This document shows positions 39,001 to 51,000 of a stretch of DNA of 64,000 nucleotides, piece by piece. This stretch comes from Trueperaceae bacterium. GTDB taxonomy: Bacteria > Deinococcota > Deinococci > Deinococcales > Trueperaceae. The stretch spans positions 1-64,000 of the forward strand of contig JBBDRK010000049.1 of assembly GCA_040905465.1 (NCBI GenBank), in the 5' to 3' direction. Position numbers: made by a program. Every line of letters starts with the position of its first letter. Within the stretch, counting starts at the first letter, position 1.

Positions 39001-42000
39001 CCTGCAACATCGGCACGCAATCGCCGTAGTCGATCAGGCCGTGCTGCATTCGATGCAGACCGAGGTGAAGCCCTACCGCGCCATCACCTCGGCGACGACC
39101 GAGCTCGGAATGCGGAGTCAGCAGTTGATGGAACTGTCATTGAGCGCATTCCTGCCCAGCCTCGTTATCGTCGGGCAAGCGGGTACCGCTTTCGCCTCTA
39201 AGCGCGACACGCCCCCGGGCCGCCACGACCGTCAGGAATGGCTGCACCACGACACGGGGCTCGGTAATAGCGCGTCCGACTACCACGGCGAAGGCGCCAC
39301 GCTCGAAGGCGGCCTCCACCAGGACCGAAGTGTTGTAGCGCCCCTCGGCCACAACCGGAAGCCCGGCCTCGCTCAGAGCAGCCACCAAATCGAGGTCGGC
39401 TCCCTCCTGCTGCGGACTATAGGGGGTGTACCCCGATAGGGTCGTCCCGATCAAATCCGCTCCCGCCTCGGCAGCCGCCACGCCCTCCTCCACCGTCGAG
39501 ATGTCGGCCATCACCCGTGCACCACGCTCGTGCACCGATGCGATCAGCTCGCGGAGTGTGCTTCCGTCGGGACGAGGAGCGTCCGCTCCGTCCAGGGCAA
39601 CGATGTCGGCTCCGGCATCGACGACCTCGCGAGCGGAGGCGATGGTCGGGGTTATGAATACCTGAAACCCCTCGTGGCGCTGCTTGTTTATTCCAATGAT
39701 GGGAGAGCCGATGCGGGTGCGGATCGTGCGCACGCGCTCGGCGCCGTTAGCGCGTATCCCGGCAGCGCCGCTCTCCACCATGACGGCCGCGAGATCGGCA
39801 ACGTACGCCGGGGAATCGAGTGGCGCCTGAGGCTGACACGAGACGATCAAGGAGTGGCGGAGTTGCTCTAATATCCTGTCCATGGCATTTCCCTTTCCCA
39901 AGCTGCCCTGCCAGACCGCGCTGCGGCCGACATACGCCCTCATCGGCAGCGGACCGGTTTTGAGGGCGGGGGTTGCGACCTGAAGGTTGCGGCGCCAGAT
40001 GAATGGCTAGCCTACAAGCTTGCGCACCAGGTAGCGGGCGTTCGCGGGCAGATCAGGGGAGTGTACCGGTGAGAAGCCCAGGTGCCGATAGAATCCTTCC
40101 GCCCGCCGGTTGGCCGGATCCATCTCCAGATGCACGCCTGGTGATCGCATCTCCAAGAGGCTAGCGAGCAAGACTTCGAGCAAGGCACGTCCCTGGCCCC
40201 GGCCCTGCGCACGCGGCAACAGGTCGACATGGAGTTGCGACGCGAACGGCGCCAGGACGTCCGGAAACACGAGCGTAGGGTGGTGAATTCGCCAGCGTAG
40301 TCTATCGCTCGCCGGCAACCTGTCCCACTCCTCGGTGGGCTCGGGAATCCGGCGCTGAAGGGGCGGCAACCACTCTCTCCTGTACTGCTCGAAGAACCTT
40401 TCCGTGTCCAGGGCGGCAAGCACGTAGCCACATATGCCGTCAGCGTCCTCGAGCGCATATGCCAAGTCGGGCTCGAGGCATACGTAAGGGCCGACATATA
40501 AGTGCCCGAGCAAGTTGCCGTCGTCGTAGAGATCGCCCGCGTCCTCGCCGGCTCGGCCCGTTTTCAGGCATACCCTGTAGAGTTGAGGAAGGTCGCGGCG
40601 AACCGCATGGCGAATTCGGAATCCTGAACGAGGTCTCACTTGGTCGCACTCAGCTCGACCAGGATCTCACGGACGGTGCCCCCGAAAACGTCGCTGGAGG
40701 TTTGGTCGAAGCGGGCAACCATCGTCTCATAGGTGTTAGCGCCTCCCACCGGGAAATATCCCTCGTAGCCGTTGGCGAGCGTGGCCAGCGCCCAAGGTCG
40801 CCACTCCTTCCAACCGCGGCTCCACTCGCGGAAGCTCGTGTCCGGAACCTCGGCGGGGGAAGTCACGAGCACTGCGCCGCCGATCCGCACACCACCCAAT
40901 TCGAACGATACCTGCTCCGGAAAGTCAGCCCCGGAGACCAGCTTCCATTGCTGGCGGGCGCCCTGCAGCCGCGTCCAGGCGACTCTGAGGCGAGGATCGC
41001 ACACCCCATCCTCCCGAGCCCGGGAGTAGGCCGCTTCCGCCTCAGCCAAGGCAGCCTCGGCCTGCTCTGGTGCCGGCAACTCCCGTGTGGGTACGTGGAC
41101 GATGCGCGAAAGCAGAGCCAGTTCCACGCCGTTACCGTCCGGTATCGCCGTCACGCCTGACGCCTCTGTCGCCAATGTGGCCAGCCGACGACCAAGCCGC
41201 AGCGCCTCCCCGTGAGACGATTCCCGCCGAACGAACCGCGTGCTGACGTCCGCGGCGGCCCCCGTGAGGACCGCGCATGAGGCTCCGGTTCGCGCCTCGA
41301 GCTCGCGAGCCACTGCCCCGAACAGGTCACCCGAGTAGGCGAGGTTGGACGCGTCCAACACGGTCGAGTGGCAGCCCACGGAAAGGAGGGTACCGAGGAG
41401 AGATCCATCCTCGGGATTCGTGAGGCGGACGGCGAGGCCGCTACCTGCCGCGCTCGAGTCGGGCTCCAGTCGGTTGCTCGCCACGCCCGTGAGTGGGAAC
41501 CGCCGGACCGAGACGCGCGCTTCACGACGGACATTCCTCGCGGCCGCGGCGGCTTCAGCCACCTTCTCGGCGACGCGTTCAGCGTACTGCATCTCCGCCT
41601 CTACGCTCGTGGGGTATTCCGCGAAACCTTTCGGACCAGCGTGGGTATGTGTGGCGGCTATCAGTGAAAGGGCTCGGCGGTCAGACCGCACTTTCGGCAG
41701 AAGCGCCTTCACGTGCTCCACCCATGGTCGGCTCACGCCGAGGACTTCAAGGACCACCAGCGTAAGCTCGAAATCGCGGTTCCCGAGGTGCCAGACCCTT
41801 CCCATCAGCAGATCGAGACAGTCCCCCGCGGTGCCGGTGCGGTCTGCATAACCGTCCAGTTCCAGTCCCAGCGGCGGGTCGAGTGGAAAGGAAGCGATGC
41901 CGAAGAGCAAATCGCTCCCGCTCACGACGGCTCCAACTCCTCCCATTTTCGTCTGGTGCGCCTGATGCCGCCGAGGACACGGTCATCGAGTAGTCGGCCG

Positions 42001-48000: not shown

Positions 48001-51000
48001 GCAGCAGAGTGAAGTCGGTGAGACTGAGGTAGAAGCCGTAGGCGATCGGGAAGATGCTGAAGGCGCCGAAGAACAGCACGACCGGCAGGACGAACGCGAA
48101 GCCCCACCACTTCCGGCTTCTTAGCAGCGAGGACCGGCGGGGTGCACGGGCTGCCTCCGGCTGGGAGGCGAGACCCTGTGGAAGACTTTGCTGGCTCATC
48201 GTCGCCCTTCAATACCTGCCCGTGCAACTGGGATTACTGTCGTTCCGCTTCCCTGCGGGCCCGGTCGAGCGTCCCTTGGACGTCACTGTCGGCTCGCTCG
48301 AGAGTTTCCTCGACCGGGGCGCCGCCGAGTACGCGGTCGCGGGCGCGGGCGATCCCGTCAGCCACCTCGTTGAACCCGGGAATCCTCGGCGAAAAGAAAC
48401 TCTTCTCCATCTCCTCGAAGAATACGGGCATTATCTCGTTTTGCTGGAAGGCTTCGGACTCCACGAATTCGACGCGCGGCTGGAACAGGCCTGCCTCTTC
48501 GAAGTACCGGTCCGGATGCTGAGCCAGGAATCCAGCAAGTTTCCAGGCCGCCTCCTGCACGTCCTCATCGGCGTAGGCATTGACGAGGTAGTAGTAGCCG
48601 TACTTGTCGAAGCCGTTGTCGTTGACGGCATCCGACCAGCGGGGGACGGGGTGGATGGAGTAGTCGACGCCGGCATCTTCCATCTGGGGCACTCCCCAAT
48701 TGCCAAAGCTGCAGTCGGTCGCCAGTTCGCCGGCGAGGAATGCGTCGCGCGATCCCGTGTACTGAGGCCCTCCCAGCCGGTGCTCGTTGACCCAGTCAGA
48801 CCAGTACCGCATCACGCGCGCAACCTCCGGCGTGTCGATCGTGGCCTCGAACTCGTCCTCGTCGATCAACTGGCCGCCGAGCTGCGTGACCATGGGATTG
48901 AACTGGAGCCAGACGAATATGGGTGACGTCCAGTTGAAATCGAACCCGCGCTGGACCGGGTTGCCATCGTCGTCTCGCACGGTCAGCGTCTCGGCGACGT
49001 CGATCATCTCCTCCCAGGTCGTCGGAAAGTCCTCGGCCGGGCTCAGGCCGGCTGCCTCCCACAACTCATCGTTGCTGTAACAGGCGTAGATGCTCAGCTC
49101 GGTGGGGATGCCGTACGGTGTGCCGTCGAAAACGGCGCCTTCCGCTCCAGTGCTGTACGCGGCAAGGAAGTCCTCCCTGCTGCCGAAGCCGGCTGCCTCG
49201 ACGTCCAGAGGAGCCAGTGCGCCGGCTGCGCGGAACTGACCGAGAGCAAACGTGGCCTGGTTGAAGAGGTCGGGACCGCGACCGGCGGCCACGGCCGTGT
49301 AGAGGCGCAGGTCGAAATCAGCGACCGGGATCACTTCGTAGTTCACCTGTATGTCGGGGTTTTCTGCCATGAACTCAGCGATGAGTTCCTCGTCTACCGG
49401 GACACGCGGCGGGTGGTCGTGCATCCAAACGGTTAGGGTGGTTTGTGCCGCCGCCAGGCCGAGTACAGCGACGATGACGGCAAGCGTCAGGATACGTTCG
49501 ATGGAGCGCACAGTAAACCTCCTGAGAAACGATGGGACGGGGCGAGGGACGGATACTTTCTCTATGCCGTCAACCTATGGCCACCTCCGTTCGCTCGAGA
49601 ACCCTGCCCGAGAGCCATCCCAATTCGAGCGCTTGGAGTGCAACGCCAAGAGCTCCAGCGCTCCTGGGCAGGTGGGCATACTCAACCGTGATGTCGCGCA
49701 TGAGCGCCGGGATGACCAGTTGACGAAGCTCTTCACTCACATCGCGCAGGAAGCCGGGACCCGCGGCTCGGAGCTGCCCTCCAATGAGAATACGAGTGGA
49801 ACCGCAGATGCTGACTGCGCTCCCAAGAGCCTTGGCTATGTAACGAGCAAGTCGCTTCAGTACTAGAAAGCTCGCCTTGTCTCCGCGAGCAGCCGCCTCG
49901 CATATGGCCCTCACATCCGAATTCGCGGGCTCCGTGAGCGAGGACGGTACTCCCTGCCTAATCATCTCCACCAACGCGTCCTGGATGGCGCGGTGCGAAG
50001 CAAGCGTCTCGAGACAGCCGCGGTTGCCACACTGGCAGAACGGCCCGTCGTCCTCTACCGCGATGTGCCCGATCTCTCCGCACACCCCGCTGGTGCTCTT
50101 GAGCAGGCGGTCGTCGACGAAAATACCGCCACCCACACTGCCGGAACCGAAGAAGAGGTAGACGGCATCGGGGTAACCTCGAGCGGCGCCGTGGCGATGC
50201 TCAGCCTCGGCAAACGCACGCGAGACGTCTTCCACCACCACTGGACGCGACAATCTCTGTTCCAGCTTCGCCCTGATGGGAAACGGCTCGGACAGCGGCC
50301 GCTGCCATGTAATCCACTCTCCCCTCCCGCTCACCACGTCGTGCAGAGCCACGCCGAGAGAAAGGAGATCGTCGACGTCCGCGCCCACCTGACTCAACGC
50401 CGCCTCCGTCAAGGCGATGACTTCATCCACGGTGTCGTCGGTGGCCACGAACTCACGCTCGCCCTCCGACTGGTCGCTCCACAGCACCTCTCCTGATGCG
50501 TCTGCCAACACGACCGAGAGGAACGATCTGCCGAGCTCGATTCCCACCACCAATCCTGCCGCTGGGCCCAAGGACAGCTCCTCTGAGGGGCGCCCACCGT
50601 TGGAACCCGATGTTGACCGGCTTTCGGCTCTGATGAGGCCGCGCTCCACGAGCTGAGTAACCACGCGGCTGGTTGTCGTTTGATGATAGCCGAGCAGTAT
50701 GGAAAGGTCGGTCCGTGTCCTGGCCTTGCCGTGCAGTAGCGCCTCCAGGACACTCAGCTCGCGCACATGGCGACCTGTGCTGCGACGAGATACGGTTGTC
50801 ATTACGCATGAAACTAGCACGCCAGGGGCGAAAAGGACAAGCCCTTTAATGCAAGATGTCCTCTAACCACCCGTCATCCGGGGAAGCAAAAAGTGATACG
50901 TCAACTAACCCTAAGGTGAGCGTGAAGGACCCCACATTCGCACAGGGAATGCTGGTTGTGGGATACGACGACTGCTATGCATCCGGGCTGACCGAGGTGA

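What a model noticed while it worked through the whole genome (the two positions that open the first line are those of the whole stretch)
39137..50766. Ceramidase-fold amidases coupled and fused to a NagS-like SIS domain in an amino-sugar operon
Two paralogs of an uncharacterised ~430-aa family (p1980, 40636-41946; the N-domain of p1982, 42938-45058) have the catalytic fold and a conserved metal/catalytic residue set like neutral ceramidase. They sit in an amino-sugar uptake and catabolism operon. One of them is fused to a UPF0309 SIS domain homologous to Streptomyces NagS. The family is next to such SIS genes in most metagenome loci, so I predict cytoplasmic N-acyl amino-sugar(-phosphate) amidases working with the SIS enzyme, not lipid ceramidases.
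Evidence so far: Model pLDDT 92.2. Foldseek against the PDB: only neutral ceramidases, E 2.5e-24 to 1e-22, with the next hit at 5.9e-3. Invariant H100, H102, R159, H193, E366, Y397 and Y406 in 50 aligned members. 970 clusters at E <= 1e-10. The SIS part matches 9eol (SCO4393 = NagS) at E 4.6e-40 with H53/S54/D179 kept. SIS within 1.5 kb on the same strand in 40 of 54 metagenome loci >= 6 kb, and within 60 bp in 22. Unbiased neighbour families: SIS_2 40, NagA-like 27, Gfo/Idh/MocA 26, mannose-type PTS 19-22, HAD 18, BadF 12, GntR-UTRA 12, each of 54. Operon genes: calls 58, 69, 152.
(Added by a program. Inside this text positions count along the whole contig: contig position 1 is position 1 of the stretch shown here. 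"Call 12" and the like, gene names such as g00115 and contig names such as C1 are that model's own, and its searches are not shown. The text may have been shortened before it was handed on; [...] marks where a part breaks off. The agent that wrote the report below was given it as the finding of a first reader that could run no searches.)

Follow-up and report, generated by a model that had tools for sequence, protein, structure and literature searches.

The report
Ceramidase-fold amidases in amino-sugar operon
Two soluble relatives of the lipid enzyme neutral ceramidase sit inside a bacterial operon for taking up and breaking down an amino sugar, and gene neighbourhoods in many other microbes suggest they cut amide bonds on sugar phosphates, not lipids, though no experiment has tested this.

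Summary
A tight minus-strand operon (50820-39137) encodes a ROK regulator, ABC sugar uptake, a DegT aminotransferase, p1982 (ceramidase-like domain fused to a UPF0309 SIS domain), a BadF/MurK-like kinase, p1980 (ceramidase-like), a GNAT and NanE. Fold, the seven catalytic residues, the family size and the NagS homology all reproduce. Residue equivalence to neutral ceramidase is now shown by profile alignment.

New points:
1. The two paralogs belong to different subfamilies. The p1980 type is linked to UPF0309 SIS genes (67-69 of 80 genome loci). The p1982 N-domain type is linked to DegT (25 of 80 metagenome loci) and rarely to SIS (5 of 80).
2. Mannose-type PTS (38 loci) and BadF kinase (25 loci) almost exclude each other (1 locus has both), so the substrate is probably a sugar phosphate.
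3. NagA-like genes co-occur in 47 of 80 loci, and all 4 that were scored pass the NagA cut-off. The amidase is therefore not a NagA substitute but an extra, upstream step.
4. The fusion is rare and joins two modules.
5. Published assays found that NagS homologues outside Streptomycetaceae do not dehydrate GlcNAc-6P.

The substrate is unknown. This is an untested functional prediction for a large family.

The parts
49570..50820 (-). ROK-family regulator with an N-terminal winged-helix domain (NagC/Mlc-like). First gene of the operon.
   Evidence: Pfam ROK 149.6 bits plus MarR_2/IclR-type HTH hits. NCBIfam NagC 157.7 bits, below its cut-off.
48234..49511 (-). ABC sugar-binding protein (SBP_bac_1, CUT1 type). 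AGGAGG lies 7 nt before its GTG start.
   Evidence: The PDB sequence search gives only generic sugar binders, best 5f7v at 4.6e-18.
47249..48199 (-). ABC permease 1
   Evidence: BPD_transp_1.
46376..47239 (-). ABC permease 2
   Evidence: BPD_transp_1.
45059..46348 (-). DegT/DnrJ/EryC1-family PLP aminotransferase. Its stop abuts the p1982 start with a 0-nt gap.
   Evidence: Pfam 239.1 bits. Best PDB relative is 5k8b, the 8-amino-3,8-dideoxy-manno-octulosonate transaminase, at 1.3e-50. DegT is the commonest neighbour of the p1982 N-domain subfamily: 25 of 80 loci, all on the same strand, median gap 4 bp.
43739..45058 (-). p1982 residues 1 to about 440: ceramidase-fold amidase domain of subfamily CER-II ('DVDP' motif).
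   Evidence: PF04734 33.1 bits, above the 32.1 cut-off. All seven invariant catalytic residues are kept. 43-45% identical to stand-alone 432-451 aa proteins.
42941..43663 (-). p1982 residues 466-706: UPF0309 SIS domain. Residues 441-465 form an acidic linker.
   Evidence: SIS_2 131.4 bits and NF002805 271.4 bits, above the 135 cut-off. 9eol at 3.6e-39 and 3cvj at 2.5e-44. Equivalents of NagS H53, S54, R64, E94, S119, S121, D179 and N228 are kept; S91 is Thr.
41922..42941 (-). BadF/BcrAD-family sugar kinase (NagK/MurK-like). Overlaps the p1982 stop by 4 nt.
   Evidence: Pfam 123.1 bits. Best PDB relative is 8zo3, the MurNAc/GlcNAc kinase, at 1.3e-27.
40636..41946 (-). p1980: ceramidase-fold amidase of subfamily CER-I ('DVSTRF-x-RR' motif). 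The likely start is the GTG at 41925, which gives 429 aa and a 4-nt overlap with BadF.
   Evidence: The database copy, P0001, is 429 aa.
40007..40639 (-). GNAT-type acetyltransferase; only the C-terminal part matches. Overlaps the p1980 stop by 4 nt.
   Evidence: Acetyltransf_7 29.0 bits and Acetyltransf_1 27.8 bits. No BLASTP homologue in any of the 80 genome loci.
39137..39943 (-). NanE, putative N-acetylmannosamine-6-phosphate 2-epimerase. Last gene of the operon.
   Evidence: Pfam NanE 181 bits. NF002231 244.8 bits, above the 189 cut-off. The next genes are an AsnC regulator on the + strand and an unrelated ABC system.

Best explanation
p1980 and the N-domain of p1982 are cytoplasmic, single-domain zinc amidohydrolases of the neutral-ceramidase superfamily. 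They act on water-soluble amino-sugar derivatives, not on ceramide.

The operon is a catabolic route for an imported, amide-decorated hexosamine. This could be a sugar with two N-acyl groups, or an N-acetylhexosamine that carries a further amide-linked substituent.

Proposed steps (all inferred; none assayed):
1. The ABC system imports the sugar.
2. The BadF kinase makes the 6-phosphate.
3. p1980 (subfamily CER-I) hydrolyses an amide on the sugar phosphate. It works with the UPF0309 SIS enzyme, which uses the NagS/MurQ type of C2 enolisation chemistry (isomerisation, or elimination at C3).
4. The p1982 N-domain (subfamily CER-II) frees a second amino group, and the adjacent DegT aminotransferase converts it to a carbonyl.
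5. The product is ManNAc-6-P. NanE turns it into GlcNAc-6-P for the NagA/NagB-like genes encoded elsewhere in the genome.

The p1982 fusion joins a DegT/CER-II pair to the conserved block SIS - BadF - CER-I - NanE.
For: Homology and catalytic set (shown):
- The family profile matches only neutral ceramidases in the PDB: 2zws at 2.7e-45 and 4wgk at 9.9e-42.
- The alignment puts family H100/H102/R159/H193/E366/Y397/Y406 on 2zws H97/H99/R160/H204/E411/Y448/Y460.
- The fold match is unique.
- A review names His196, Arg257, Tyr579, Tyr591 and Ser354 as catalytic in the human enzyme (PMC6952831, passages).

Cytoplasmic location (inferred): there is no room for a signal peptide in 76 of 78 members.

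Operon (shown): gene junctions are 0, -4, -4 (from the GTG start at 41925) and -4 nt.

The SIS - CER-I module (shown):
- SIS is present in 67-69 of 80 genome loci and within 60 bp on the same strand in 43 of 80.
- In the paralogous CER-II set, scanned the same way, SIS is present in 5 of 80.

Sugar-phosphate substrate (inferred):
- PTS in 38 loci, BadF in 25, both in 1, neither in 18 of 80. Among 57 loci of at least 12 kb the counts are 31, 20, 1 and 7.
- The phosphate-binding and catalytic NagS residues are kept in 88 of 88 neighbouring SIS proteins.

Feeding HexNAc-6-P catabolism (inferred):
- Operons such as L029 read Gfo - SBP - BPD - BPD - SIS - BadF - CER - NanE - NagA - NagB.
- NagA scores 280-335 bits against a 225.65 cut-off in 4 of 4 tested, and NagB passes its cut-off.
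- The Facklamia locus L073 joins CER - SIS to a GalNAc-type cluster of NagA, PTS, LacD-type aldolase, PfkB and AgaS.

CER-II with DegT: DegT in 25 of 80 loci, adjacent.

Repeated fusion of the ceramidase-like domain to sugar enzymes:
- SIS_2 in 2 clusters.
- The AP_endonuc_2 'sugar phosphate isomerase/epimerase' domain in 14 clusters.
- A SIS_2::amidohydrolase fusion in L069.
Against: - There is no biochemical datum for any member, and the substrate is not identified.
- The loci are the best 80 of 203 and the best 80 of 219 tblastn-confirmed matches of peptide-pattern scans. The first pattern contains the CER-I motif itself.
- Many loci come from related Anaerolineae MAGs, so the counts are not independent.
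- The operon is not conserved in the three same-family genomes that carry homologues.
- DegT and the GNAT are rare beside CER-I: 2 and 0 of 80 loci. The pathway in this window is therefore a special case.
- A GNAT in a catabolic route, and NanE after a deacylation step, are not explained cleanly.
- p1980 itself is below the Pfam cut-off (18.8 bits).
- The position of the CER-I-specific arginines (R36, R237, R240) relative to the metal site was not examined.
Confidence: 0.55

Rival explanations
1. Non-orthologous displacement. The ceramidase-like enzyme is simply an alternative GlcNAc-6-P, ManNAc-6-P or GalNAc-6-P N-deacetylase (a NagA analogue), and the UPF0309 SIS enzyme is an alternative hexosamine-6-P deaminase (a NagB analogue). 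p1982 would then be a fused deacetylase-deaminase.
For: - This operon has a kinase, NanE and a NagC-like regulator but no NagA or NagB of its own.
- The first step of SIS-type deaminases is the same C2 proton abstraction (recalled knowledge).
- Tested distant NagS homologues do not dehydrate GlcNAc-6P, which leaves room for another reaction (PMC12680351, section 10).
Against: - NagA-like genes lie in 47 of 80 CER-I loci: 25 of 38 PTS loci and 16 of 25 BadF loci.
- Four of four tested pass the NagA equivalog cut-off, and NagB or AgaS are also present in some of these loci.
- This genome has NagA-like and NagB-family genes on contig C73. NagB passes the Pfam cut-off; NagA-like scores 191 bits, below the 225.65 cut-off.
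Confidence: 0.12
2. Cell-wall sugar salvage. The pair acts on a muramic-acid derivative. The amidase cuts the lactyl-peptide amide or the muramic lactam. The UPF0309 enzyme removes the 3-O-lactyl ether as MurQ does, giving GlcNAc-6-P or ManNAc-6-P. This is a specific sub-case of the best explanation.
For: - The best solved relative of the BadF kinase is the MurNAc/GlcNAc kinase 8zo3, at 1.3e-27.
- NagS and MurQ share the C2-C3 elimination/hydration chemistry (PMC12680351, section 13, notes the MurQ-like phosphate site; the mechanism itself is recalled).
- NagA, and in a few loci NagB, follow in the operons.
- Peptide-type SBP_bac_5 transporters occur in the L029, L038 and L047 loci.
- An M20 peptidase lies between CER and SIS in L062.
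- N-acetyltransferases lie beside the module in this window and in 5 loci.
Against: - NanE (manno configuration), the GalNAc-type clusters, and the DegT and Gfo/Idh/MocA partners are not explained.
- Mannose-type PTS is not the known MurNAc transporter type (recalled).
- There is no direct evidence.
Confidence: 0.15
3. They are genuine lipid amidases (ceramide, N-acyl amino acids or N-acyl amines), and the operon context is incidental.
For: - Full conservation of the ceramidase catalytic set.
- Some sources name homologues 'neutral ceramidase'.
Against: - No signal peptide and no C-terminal domain.
- Translationally coupled inside a sugar operon.
- SIS linkage in 67-69 of 80 loci.
- Fusions to sugar-phosphate enzymes.
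- Source names are automatic Pfam transfers.
Confidence: 0.05
4. A biosynthetic or modifying role. The enzymes run in the acyl-transfer (reverse) direction, or trim an intermediate while an aminated sugar is made. DegT, GNAT, NanE and the kinase would then build the sugar, not degrade it.
For: - DegT, GNAT and NanE-type enzymes are typical of amino-sugar biosynthesis (NCBIfam names).
- Neutral ceramidases can catalyse the reverse reaction (recalled).
Against: - The operon begins with a NagC-like repressor-type regulator and a binding-protein-dependent importer.
- Related loci carry PTS importers, NagA, NagB or AgaS, and tagatose-pathway genes.
- No nucleotidyltransferase or glycosyltransferase was seen in the operon.
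Confidence: 0.08

Closest known systems
Neutral ceramidase (Pfam PF04734; Pseudomonas aeruginosa 2zws/2zxc, human ASAH2 4wgk)
   Same: - Homologous catalytic domain: profile E 2.7e-45 and 9.9e-42.
- It is the only fold match, at E about 1e-24 and TMq 0.70-0.72.
- All seven metal and catalytic positions align.
   Different: - About 430 aa against 650-690 aa, and no C-terminal domain reported by Pfam.
- No signal peptide.
- A family-specific Arg-rich motif (S235-T-R237-F-x-R240, R36) replaces the ceramidase GDVSPN region in CER-I.
- The genomic context is sugar-phosphate catabolism, not lipid metabolism.
- Substrate unknown.
NagS (SCO4393), the GlcNAc-6-P dehydratase of Streptomycetaceae (PDB 9eol; PMC12680351)
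   Same: - Same UPF0309 SIS family, E 3.6e-39.
- The essential residues H53, R64, E94 and D179, the important N228, and the phosphate serines are kept here and in 88 of 88 CER-linked SIS proteins.
   Different: - The paper restricts true NagS to Streptomycetaceae (at least 58.7% identity, nagS-dmdR1 synteny). It reports negligible (one) or no (two) activity for three homologues outside that family (sections 7 and 10).
- Here the domain is fused to an amidase and flanked by a kinase.
- The position of S91, a sugar contact, varies with locus type: T in kinase-type loci, an E plus G pair in PTS-type loci.
Canonical amino-sugar catabolism: NagK/PTS - NanE - NagA - NagB, and the GalNAc route AgaA - AgaS - tagatose-6-P kinase - aldolase
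   Same: The same operons contain these genes. The window has the kinase, NanE and a NagC-like regulator.
   Different: The ceramidase-like amidase and the UPF0309 enzyme are additions with no counterpart in the textbook pathways. They occur together with NagA, not in its place.
MurK/MurQ MurNAc salvage
   Same: - BadF-family kinase; the best solved relative is MurK 8zo3.
- A SIS-fold enzyme acting at C2-C3 of an N-acetylhexosamine-6-P.
   Different: - The SIS enzyme is UPF0309 (SIS_2), not MurQ.
- An amidase is part of the module.
- NanE and GalNAc-type genes accompany it in some loci.
DegT-family aminotransferases that act on free sugars or sugar phosphates (KdnA 5k8b; NtdA 4k2b)
   Same: The window's DegT is closest to KdnA (1.3e-50) and also matches NtdA (1.5e-21).
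   Different: Those enzymes are biosynthetic. Here DegT is paired with a ceramidase-like amidase in what looks like a catabolic operon (25 of 80 CER-II loci).

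Membership tests
Neutral ceramidase superfamily (PF04734 catalytic domain) | Homologous catalytic-domain fold | tested here: met
   Foldseek finds only neutral ceramidases, E 2.5e-24 to 1.5e-22. The profile scores 2.7e-45 against 2zws.
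Neutral ceramidase superfamily (PF04734 catalytic domain) | Zinc ligands and catalytic residues (2zws H97, H99, R160, H204, E411, Y448, Y460; human H194, H196, R257, E540, Y579, Y591) | tested here: met
   The residues align column for column and are invariant in 78 of 78 sequences, including both window proteins. The roles in the human enzyme come from PMC6952831. The roles in the Pseudomonas enzyme are recalled.
Neutral ceramidase superfamily (PF04734 catalytic domain) | Pfam gathering score | tested here: inconclusive
   p1982 scores 33.1 bits against the 32.1 cut-off (met). p1980 scores 18.8 bits (not met).
Neutral ceramidase proper (secreted or ecto lipid amidase) | C-terminal ceramidase domain and secretion signal | tested here: not met
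   No C-terminal ceramidase domain is reported by Pfam. Proteins are 415-495 aa. 76 of 78 have at most 25 residues before the conserved Pro24 column.
Neutral ceramidase proper (secreted or ecto lipid amidase) | Hydrolysis of ceramide | not testable with these tools
   Needs an enzyme assay.
NagS (GlcNAc-6-P dehydratase) | UPF0309 SIS homology with the catalytic residues H53, R64, E94, D179 and N228 | tested here: met
NagS (GlcNAc-6-P dehydratase) | Orthology as defined in the paper: at least 58.7% identity, Streptomycetaceae, nagS next to dmdR1 | tested here: not met
   The flanking genes are DegT/amidase and BadF. The paper limits NagS to Streptomycetaceae (PMC12680351, sections 7 and 16). 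Identity to 9eol was not computed; the alignment shows many differences.
NagS (GlcNAc-6-P dehydratase) | GlcNAc-6-P dehydratase activity | not testable with these tools
   Three homologues from outside the Streptomycetaceae showed negligible or no activity in the paper (section 10).
NagA (amidohydrolase-superfamily GlcNAc-6-P deacetylase) | Amidohydro_1 / TIGR00221 match | tested here: not met
   Neither p1980 nor p1982 gives such a hit. NagA genes that pass the cut-off are separate genes in the related loci.
Conserved module SIS_2 - (BadF or PTS) - CER-I (proposed here) | A CER-I type amidase ('DVSTRF' motif) with a UPF0309 SIS gene on the same strand within 1.5 kb and a BadF kinase or mannose-type PTS | tested here: met
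   The window order is SIS domain - BadF - p1980 - GNAT - NanE. Loci L022, L029, L038 and L060 have SIS - BadF - CER, with NanE either before or after it.

The most novel reading that the evidence does not exclude
The CER-I amidase and the UPF0309 SIS enzyme form a previously unrecognised, widespread two-enzyme module, found in Chloroflexota, Binatia, Bipolaricaulota, Bacillota, Thermotogae, Actinomycetota and some archaea. The module strips an amide-bearing substituent, most plausibly at C3, from a phosphorylated N-acetylhexosamine. Candidate substrates are a muramic-acid derivative or a 3-acetamido sugar. The product is plain ManNAc-, GlcNAc- or GalNAc-6-P. This would be a new entry branch of amino-sugar catabolism. 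It would also give a function to the UPF0309 family outside Streptomyces and a first non-lipid substrate class to the neutral-ceramidase fold.
Probability: 0.3. Interest if true: 0.75.

Novelty: new variant of a known kind. Interest (0 to 1): 0.6.

Why it matters
- The neutral-ceramidase fold is known only as a lipid amidase. A large soluble branch working on sugar phosphates (970 clusters at 50% identity with E<=1e-10) would widen the chemistry of the fold.
- It would assign a role to proteins that sources now name 'neutral ceramidase' or 'hypothetical'.
- It would give a testable partner and context for the UPF0309 SIS family. That family's only characterised member, NagS, is confined to Streptomycetaceae, and its homologues elsewhere have no known substrate.
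- It would point to an undescribed amino-sugar nutrient used by abundant uncultured anaerobes such as Anaerolineae.

Tried and rejected
I repeated it with a 14-sequence alignment.
- NagA/NagB displacement was considered. I lowered it after finding NagA-like genes in 47 of 80 loci, with 4 of 4 scored above the NagA cut-off, and NagB or AgaS in some loci.
- Promoter and terminator scan of 38000-52000 found 0 promoter-like sites and 1 terminator-like site inside a permease gene, fewer than in shuffles. It is uninformative for this GC-rich DNA.
- PDB sequence search with the binding protein gave only generic maltose/oligosaccharide binders and no ligand hint.
- Protein Atlas search for the conserved 148-aa neighbour of Anaerolineae loci gave only weak hits to small hydrophobic proteins. 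Its sequence looks like a small membrane protein.
- Same-family genomes with homologues (G059, G125) do not share the operon. G125 has NagA-like, CER and a divergently oriented SIS.
- Literature searches linking ceramidase-like proteins with SIS, NagA, PTS, AgaS, NanE or MurQ found no relevant paper. The library lacks most subscription journals.
- I did not run a complex prediction, because I do not claim that the proteins bind each other.

Full report
WHAT IS THERE

On the minus strand, ten ORFs run from 50820 to 39137. Pfam and NCBIfam identify them as follows:
- 49570-50820: a ROK regulator with an N-terminal HTH.
- 48234-49511: an SBP_bac_1 binding protein.
- 47249-48199 and 46376-47239: two permeases.
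- 45059-46348: a DegT/DnrJ/EryC1 aminotransferase.
- 42938-45058: p1982, 706 aa. PF04734 scores 33.1 bits against a 32.1 cut-off. SIS_2 scores 131.4 bits. NF002805 scores 271.4 bits.
- 41922-42941: a BadF-family kinase.
- 40636-41946: p1980. PF04734 scores 18.8 bits, below the cut-off.
- 40007-40639: a GNAT.
- 39137-39943: NanE. NF002231 scores 244.8 bits against a 189 cut-off.

The junctions DegT/p1982, p1982/BadF, BadF/p1980 and p1980/GNAT are 0, -4, -4 and -4 nt. The BadF/p1980 figure uses the GTG start at 41925, which matches the 429-aa database copy. This is one translationally coupled operon. It ends at NanE. The next genes are an AsnC regulator on the other strand and an unrelated ABC system.

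CHECKING THE OBSERVATION

- phmmer over 1.84 billion representatives gives 3146, 970 and 49 proteins at E<=1e-3, 1e-10 and 1e-30.
- A 78-sequence alignment gives the invariant residues H100, H102, R159, H193, E366, Y397 and Y406.
- The model has pLDDT 92.5 and pTM 0.92.
- In Foldseek, the four matches at E<=1e-3 are all neutral ceramidase chains (2.5e-24 to 1.5e-22, TMq 0.70-0.72). The next match is at 7.7e-3.
- The SIS part matches 9eol at 3.6e-39 and 3cvj at 2.5e-44.

It is now shown.
- A profile of the family matches only 2zws (2.7e-45) and 4wgk (9.9e-42) among 177,635 PDB sequences.
- Counting along the printed alignment, the seven invariant residues fall on 2zws H97, H99, R160, H204, E411, Y448 and Y460.
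- With the construct starting at residue 99, they fall on human H194, H196, E540, Y579 and Y591.
- A review names His196, Arg257, Tyr579 and Tyr591 as critical, and Ser354 as a support for Arg257 (PMC6952831, passages).

One detail is not reproduced. In my alignment the p1982 N-domain keeps both tyrosines.

TWO SUBFAMILIES, TWO PARTNERS

The paralogs are only 26% identical.

p1980 carries a motif that is nearly invariant in its relatives: S235-T-R237-F-x-R240, plus R36. The p1982 N-domain has D232-P-V-T and D35 instead. So does a third paralog on contig C26 in its own way.

I call the p1980 type CER-I and the p1982 N-domain type CER-II.

CER-I census. I took 80 loci from one-genome-per-species contigs. 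These are the best 80 of 203 confirmed matches, and the scan pattern contains the CER-I motif. They are mostly Anaerolineae MAGs. They also include Binatia, Bipolaricaulota, Thermotogae, Bacillota, Myxococcales, Actinomycetota, two archaeal MAGs, and the cultured Microlunatus parietis, Microlunatus sp. and Facklamia lactis.
- A UPF0309-type SIS gene is present in 69 of 80 loci by BLASTP with the window's SIS domain, and in 67 of 80 by clustering.
- It is on the same strand within 1.5 kb in 58 of 80 and within 60 bp in 43 of 80.

CER-II census. I took 80 metagenome loci, the best 80 of 219. Of these, 60 carry the 'DxDP' motif and none carries 'STRF'.
- SIS is present in only 5 of 80.
- A DegT aminotransferase is present in 25 of 80, always on the same strand, with a median gap of 4 bp.
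- A GATase1-like gene (PF07090) is present in 21 of 80.
- BadF is present in 4, and PTS in none.

The CER-II set serves as a same-method control for the SIS linkage. It also shows that DegT followed by p1982 in the window is a conserved pair.

THE FUSION

Only one other cluster has the CER::SIS_2 architecture: P0168, 694 aa, 64% identical. None of the 80 CER-I loci has it.

The window order is DegT - [CER-II::SIS] - BadF - CER-I - GNAT - NanE. This equals a DegT/CER-II pair placed in front of the block SIS - BadF - CER-I - NanE. That block is seen as separate genes in L022, L029, L038 and L060. By this reading, the SIS domain's usual partner is p1980, not the domain it is fused to.

Ceramidase-like domains are also fused to AP_endonuc_2 ('sugar phosphate isomerase/epimerase') domains in 14 clusters of about 710 aa. 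A SIS_2::amidohydrolase fusion exists in an archaeal MAG, L069. Repeated fusion to sugar-phosphate enzymes supports a sugar substrate.

WHAT THE NEIGHBOURS SAY

I clustered all ORFs of the 80 CER-I loci without prior labels and annotated the clusters by Pfam. Counts are out of 80 loci:

| Neighbour | Loci |
|---|---|
| SIS_2 | 67 (cluster 1, 72 loci, also holds the NagA-like ORFs) |
| NagA-like amidohydrolase | 47 |
| Mannose-type PTS IIB | 38 |
| Mannose-type PTS IIA | 36 |
| Mannose-type PTS IIC/IID | 34 |
| Small membrane protein with no family | 30 |
| HAD phosphatase | 27 |
| Gfo/Idh/MocA | 26 |
| BadF | 25 |
| Two-domain SIS (GlmS/AgaS-like) | 19 |
| GntR-UTRA | 16 |
| NanE | 10 |

Three patterns matter.

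First, PTS and BadF kinase almost exclude each other.
- 38 loci have PTS, 25 have BadF, 1 has both and 18 have neither.
- Among the 57 loci of at least 12 kb, the counts are 31, 20, 1 and 7.
- BadF goes with ABC or MFS importers (16 of 25).
- Two alternative ways of delivering a phosphorylated sugar imply that the core enzymes act on a sugar phosphate.
- The 88 neighbouring SIS proteins of 225-275 aa that I aligned (from 60 loci) keep the NagS equivalents H53, R64, E94, S119, S121, D179 and N228 in 88 of 88 cases. S119 and S121 are phosphate ligands in NagS (PMC12680351, section 13).

Second, NagA is present as well.
- The four NagA-like proteins I scored reach 280-335 bits against the TIGR00221 cut-off of 225.65.
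- The L029 NagB passes TIGR00502.
- L029, and likewise L038 and L047, read Gfo - SBP - BPD - BPD - SIS - BadF - CER - NanE - NagA - NagB.
- L073 (Facklamia) joins CER - SIS to NagA, a PTS, a tagatose-bisphosphate aldolase, a PfkB kinase and AgaS.
- So the amidase and the SIS enzyme are extra steps in front of ordinary HexNAc-6-P catabolism. They are not replacements for NagA and NagB.
- This genome too has NagA-like and NagB-family genes, on contig C73, beside a TRAP transporter and a second UPF0309-type SIS.

Third, the sugar-contact position S91 of NagS differs by locus type. It is Thr in kinase-type loci (11 of 17 SIS proteins, and in p1982). PTS-type loci carry a pair of paralogs with Glu and Gly (15 loci). 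This suggests different substrates, or hetero-oligomers.

MECHANISM

Shown:
- Homology, fold and the catalytic set of a zinc amidohydrolase.
- Operon structure.
- The gene linkages.

Inferred:
- Cytoplasmic location.
- A phosphorylated amino-sugar substrate.
- A position upstream of NanE, NagA and NagB.

The SIS partner most plausibly performs C2-proton abstraction chemistry, as NagS does. But the NagS paper reports that three homologues from outside the Streptomycetaceae (25.7-35.7% identity) did not restore GlcNAc sensitivity; in vitro one had negligible and two no GlcNAc-6P dehydratase activity. It restricts NagS to Streptomycetaceae (sections 7 and 10; I read the abstract, passages, and sections 10 and 13). 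'NagS-like' is therefore homology, not function.

For this window I propose the following. A decorated hexosamine is imported and phosphorylated. It is deacylated at one position by p1980 together with the SIS domain, and at another by the p1982 N-domain. DegT removes the freed amine; its nearest solved relative, KdnA 5k8b, acts on a free sugar, not a nucleotide sugar. The route ends in ManNAc-6-P for NanE.

Candidate substrates are my inference only: muramic-acid derivatives, 3-acetamido or diacetamido sugars, or hexosamines with an unusual N-acyl group. The points in favour are that the best solved relative of the kinase is MurK (1.3e-27), and that the Gfo/Idh/MocA neighbours resemble sugar 3-dehydrogenases below their cut-offs.

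The GNAT in the window is not explained, nor are the AAC(3)-like acetyltransferases, which form a five-locus cluster that includes L046 and L081.

LIMITS

- No assay exists.
- The loci are pattern-selected and phylogenetically clumped.
- Only 5 of 151 sampled genomes of the phylum, including this one, have a homologue at E<=1e-10. The carriers in the same family do not share the operon. The cluster is therefore probably acquired, and its composition is unusual: DegT and GNAT occur beside CER-I in only 2 and 0 of 80 loci.
- Five literature searches found no paper on ceramidase-like proteins in amino-sugar operons. The library omits most subscription journals, and I opened no supplements.

VERDICT

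The functional reading is reasonable but needs refining: two subfamilies, a sugar-phosphate substrate, an upstream role beside NagA, and caution about the NagS label. This is a new variant of a known enzyme kind, worth a bench test.

Noticed in passing
G000 contig C26, 533-2020 (+) (locus L099): A third ceramidase-like paralog (495 aa, PF04734 36.3 bits) lies between an enolase-superfamily gene and an FAA-hydrolase gene. It is followed by a ROK regulator, a sugar-binding protein and a GH31 glycosidase. This is a sugar-acid type context. It lacks the CER-I motif.
   Followed up: partly
G000 contig C73, about 3400-11300 (locus L097): A second amino-sugar locus in the same genome: SDR, NagA-like (191 bits, below the NagA cut-off), NagB-family gene, TRAP transporter DctP/DctM, and a second UPF0309-type SIS (120 bits). 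There is no ceramidase-like gene here.
   Followed up: partly
Proteins P0188-P0203: Fourteen clusters of about 710-aa proteins fuse a ceramidase-like domain (PF04734) to an AP_endonuc_2 / xylose-isomerase-like TIM barrel (PF01261). One source names such a protein as coming from a Verrucomicrobia MAG. Function unknown.
   Followed up: no
L069:5354-7150 (+), archaeal MAG locus: A single ORF fuses a UPF0309 SIS_2 domain to an Amidohydro_1 (NagA-like) domain, directly beside a ceramidase-like gene. The ORF runs to the contig end.
   Followed up: no
For example L021:11238-11705 (+); 30 of 80 CER-I loci: A conserved protein of about 150 aa with no Pfam family, with hydrophobic segments, lies immediately downstream of the amidase in PTS-type (Anaerolineae) loci. 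It is usually followed by an MtnX-like HAD-IB phosphatase.
   Followed up: partly
CER-II metagenome loci, for example L184:6017-6811 (+): A GATase1-like protein (PF07090) is directly adjacent to CER-II amidases in 21 of 80 loci. It is an alternative partner to DegT.
   Followed up: no
L046:258-1067 and L081:5930-6745: AAC(3)-like N-acetyltransferases lie next to the SIS gene in deltaproteobacterial and Thermodesulfobacteriota loci. They score well below the resistance-family cut-offs (134 bits against 420). They are probably amino-sugar acetyltransferases, not resistance genes.
   Followed up: no
window 51632-55216 (-): A 1194-aa protein with CarboxypepD_reg, NHL/SGL-like and VWA domains lies upstream of the operon. 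It is apparently unrelated.
   Followed up: no
G000 contig C38, 6357-6875 (-): A 217-aa open frame matches only the C-terminal half (positions 254-426) of the family profile. It may be a fragment or a fourth paralog.
   Followed up: no
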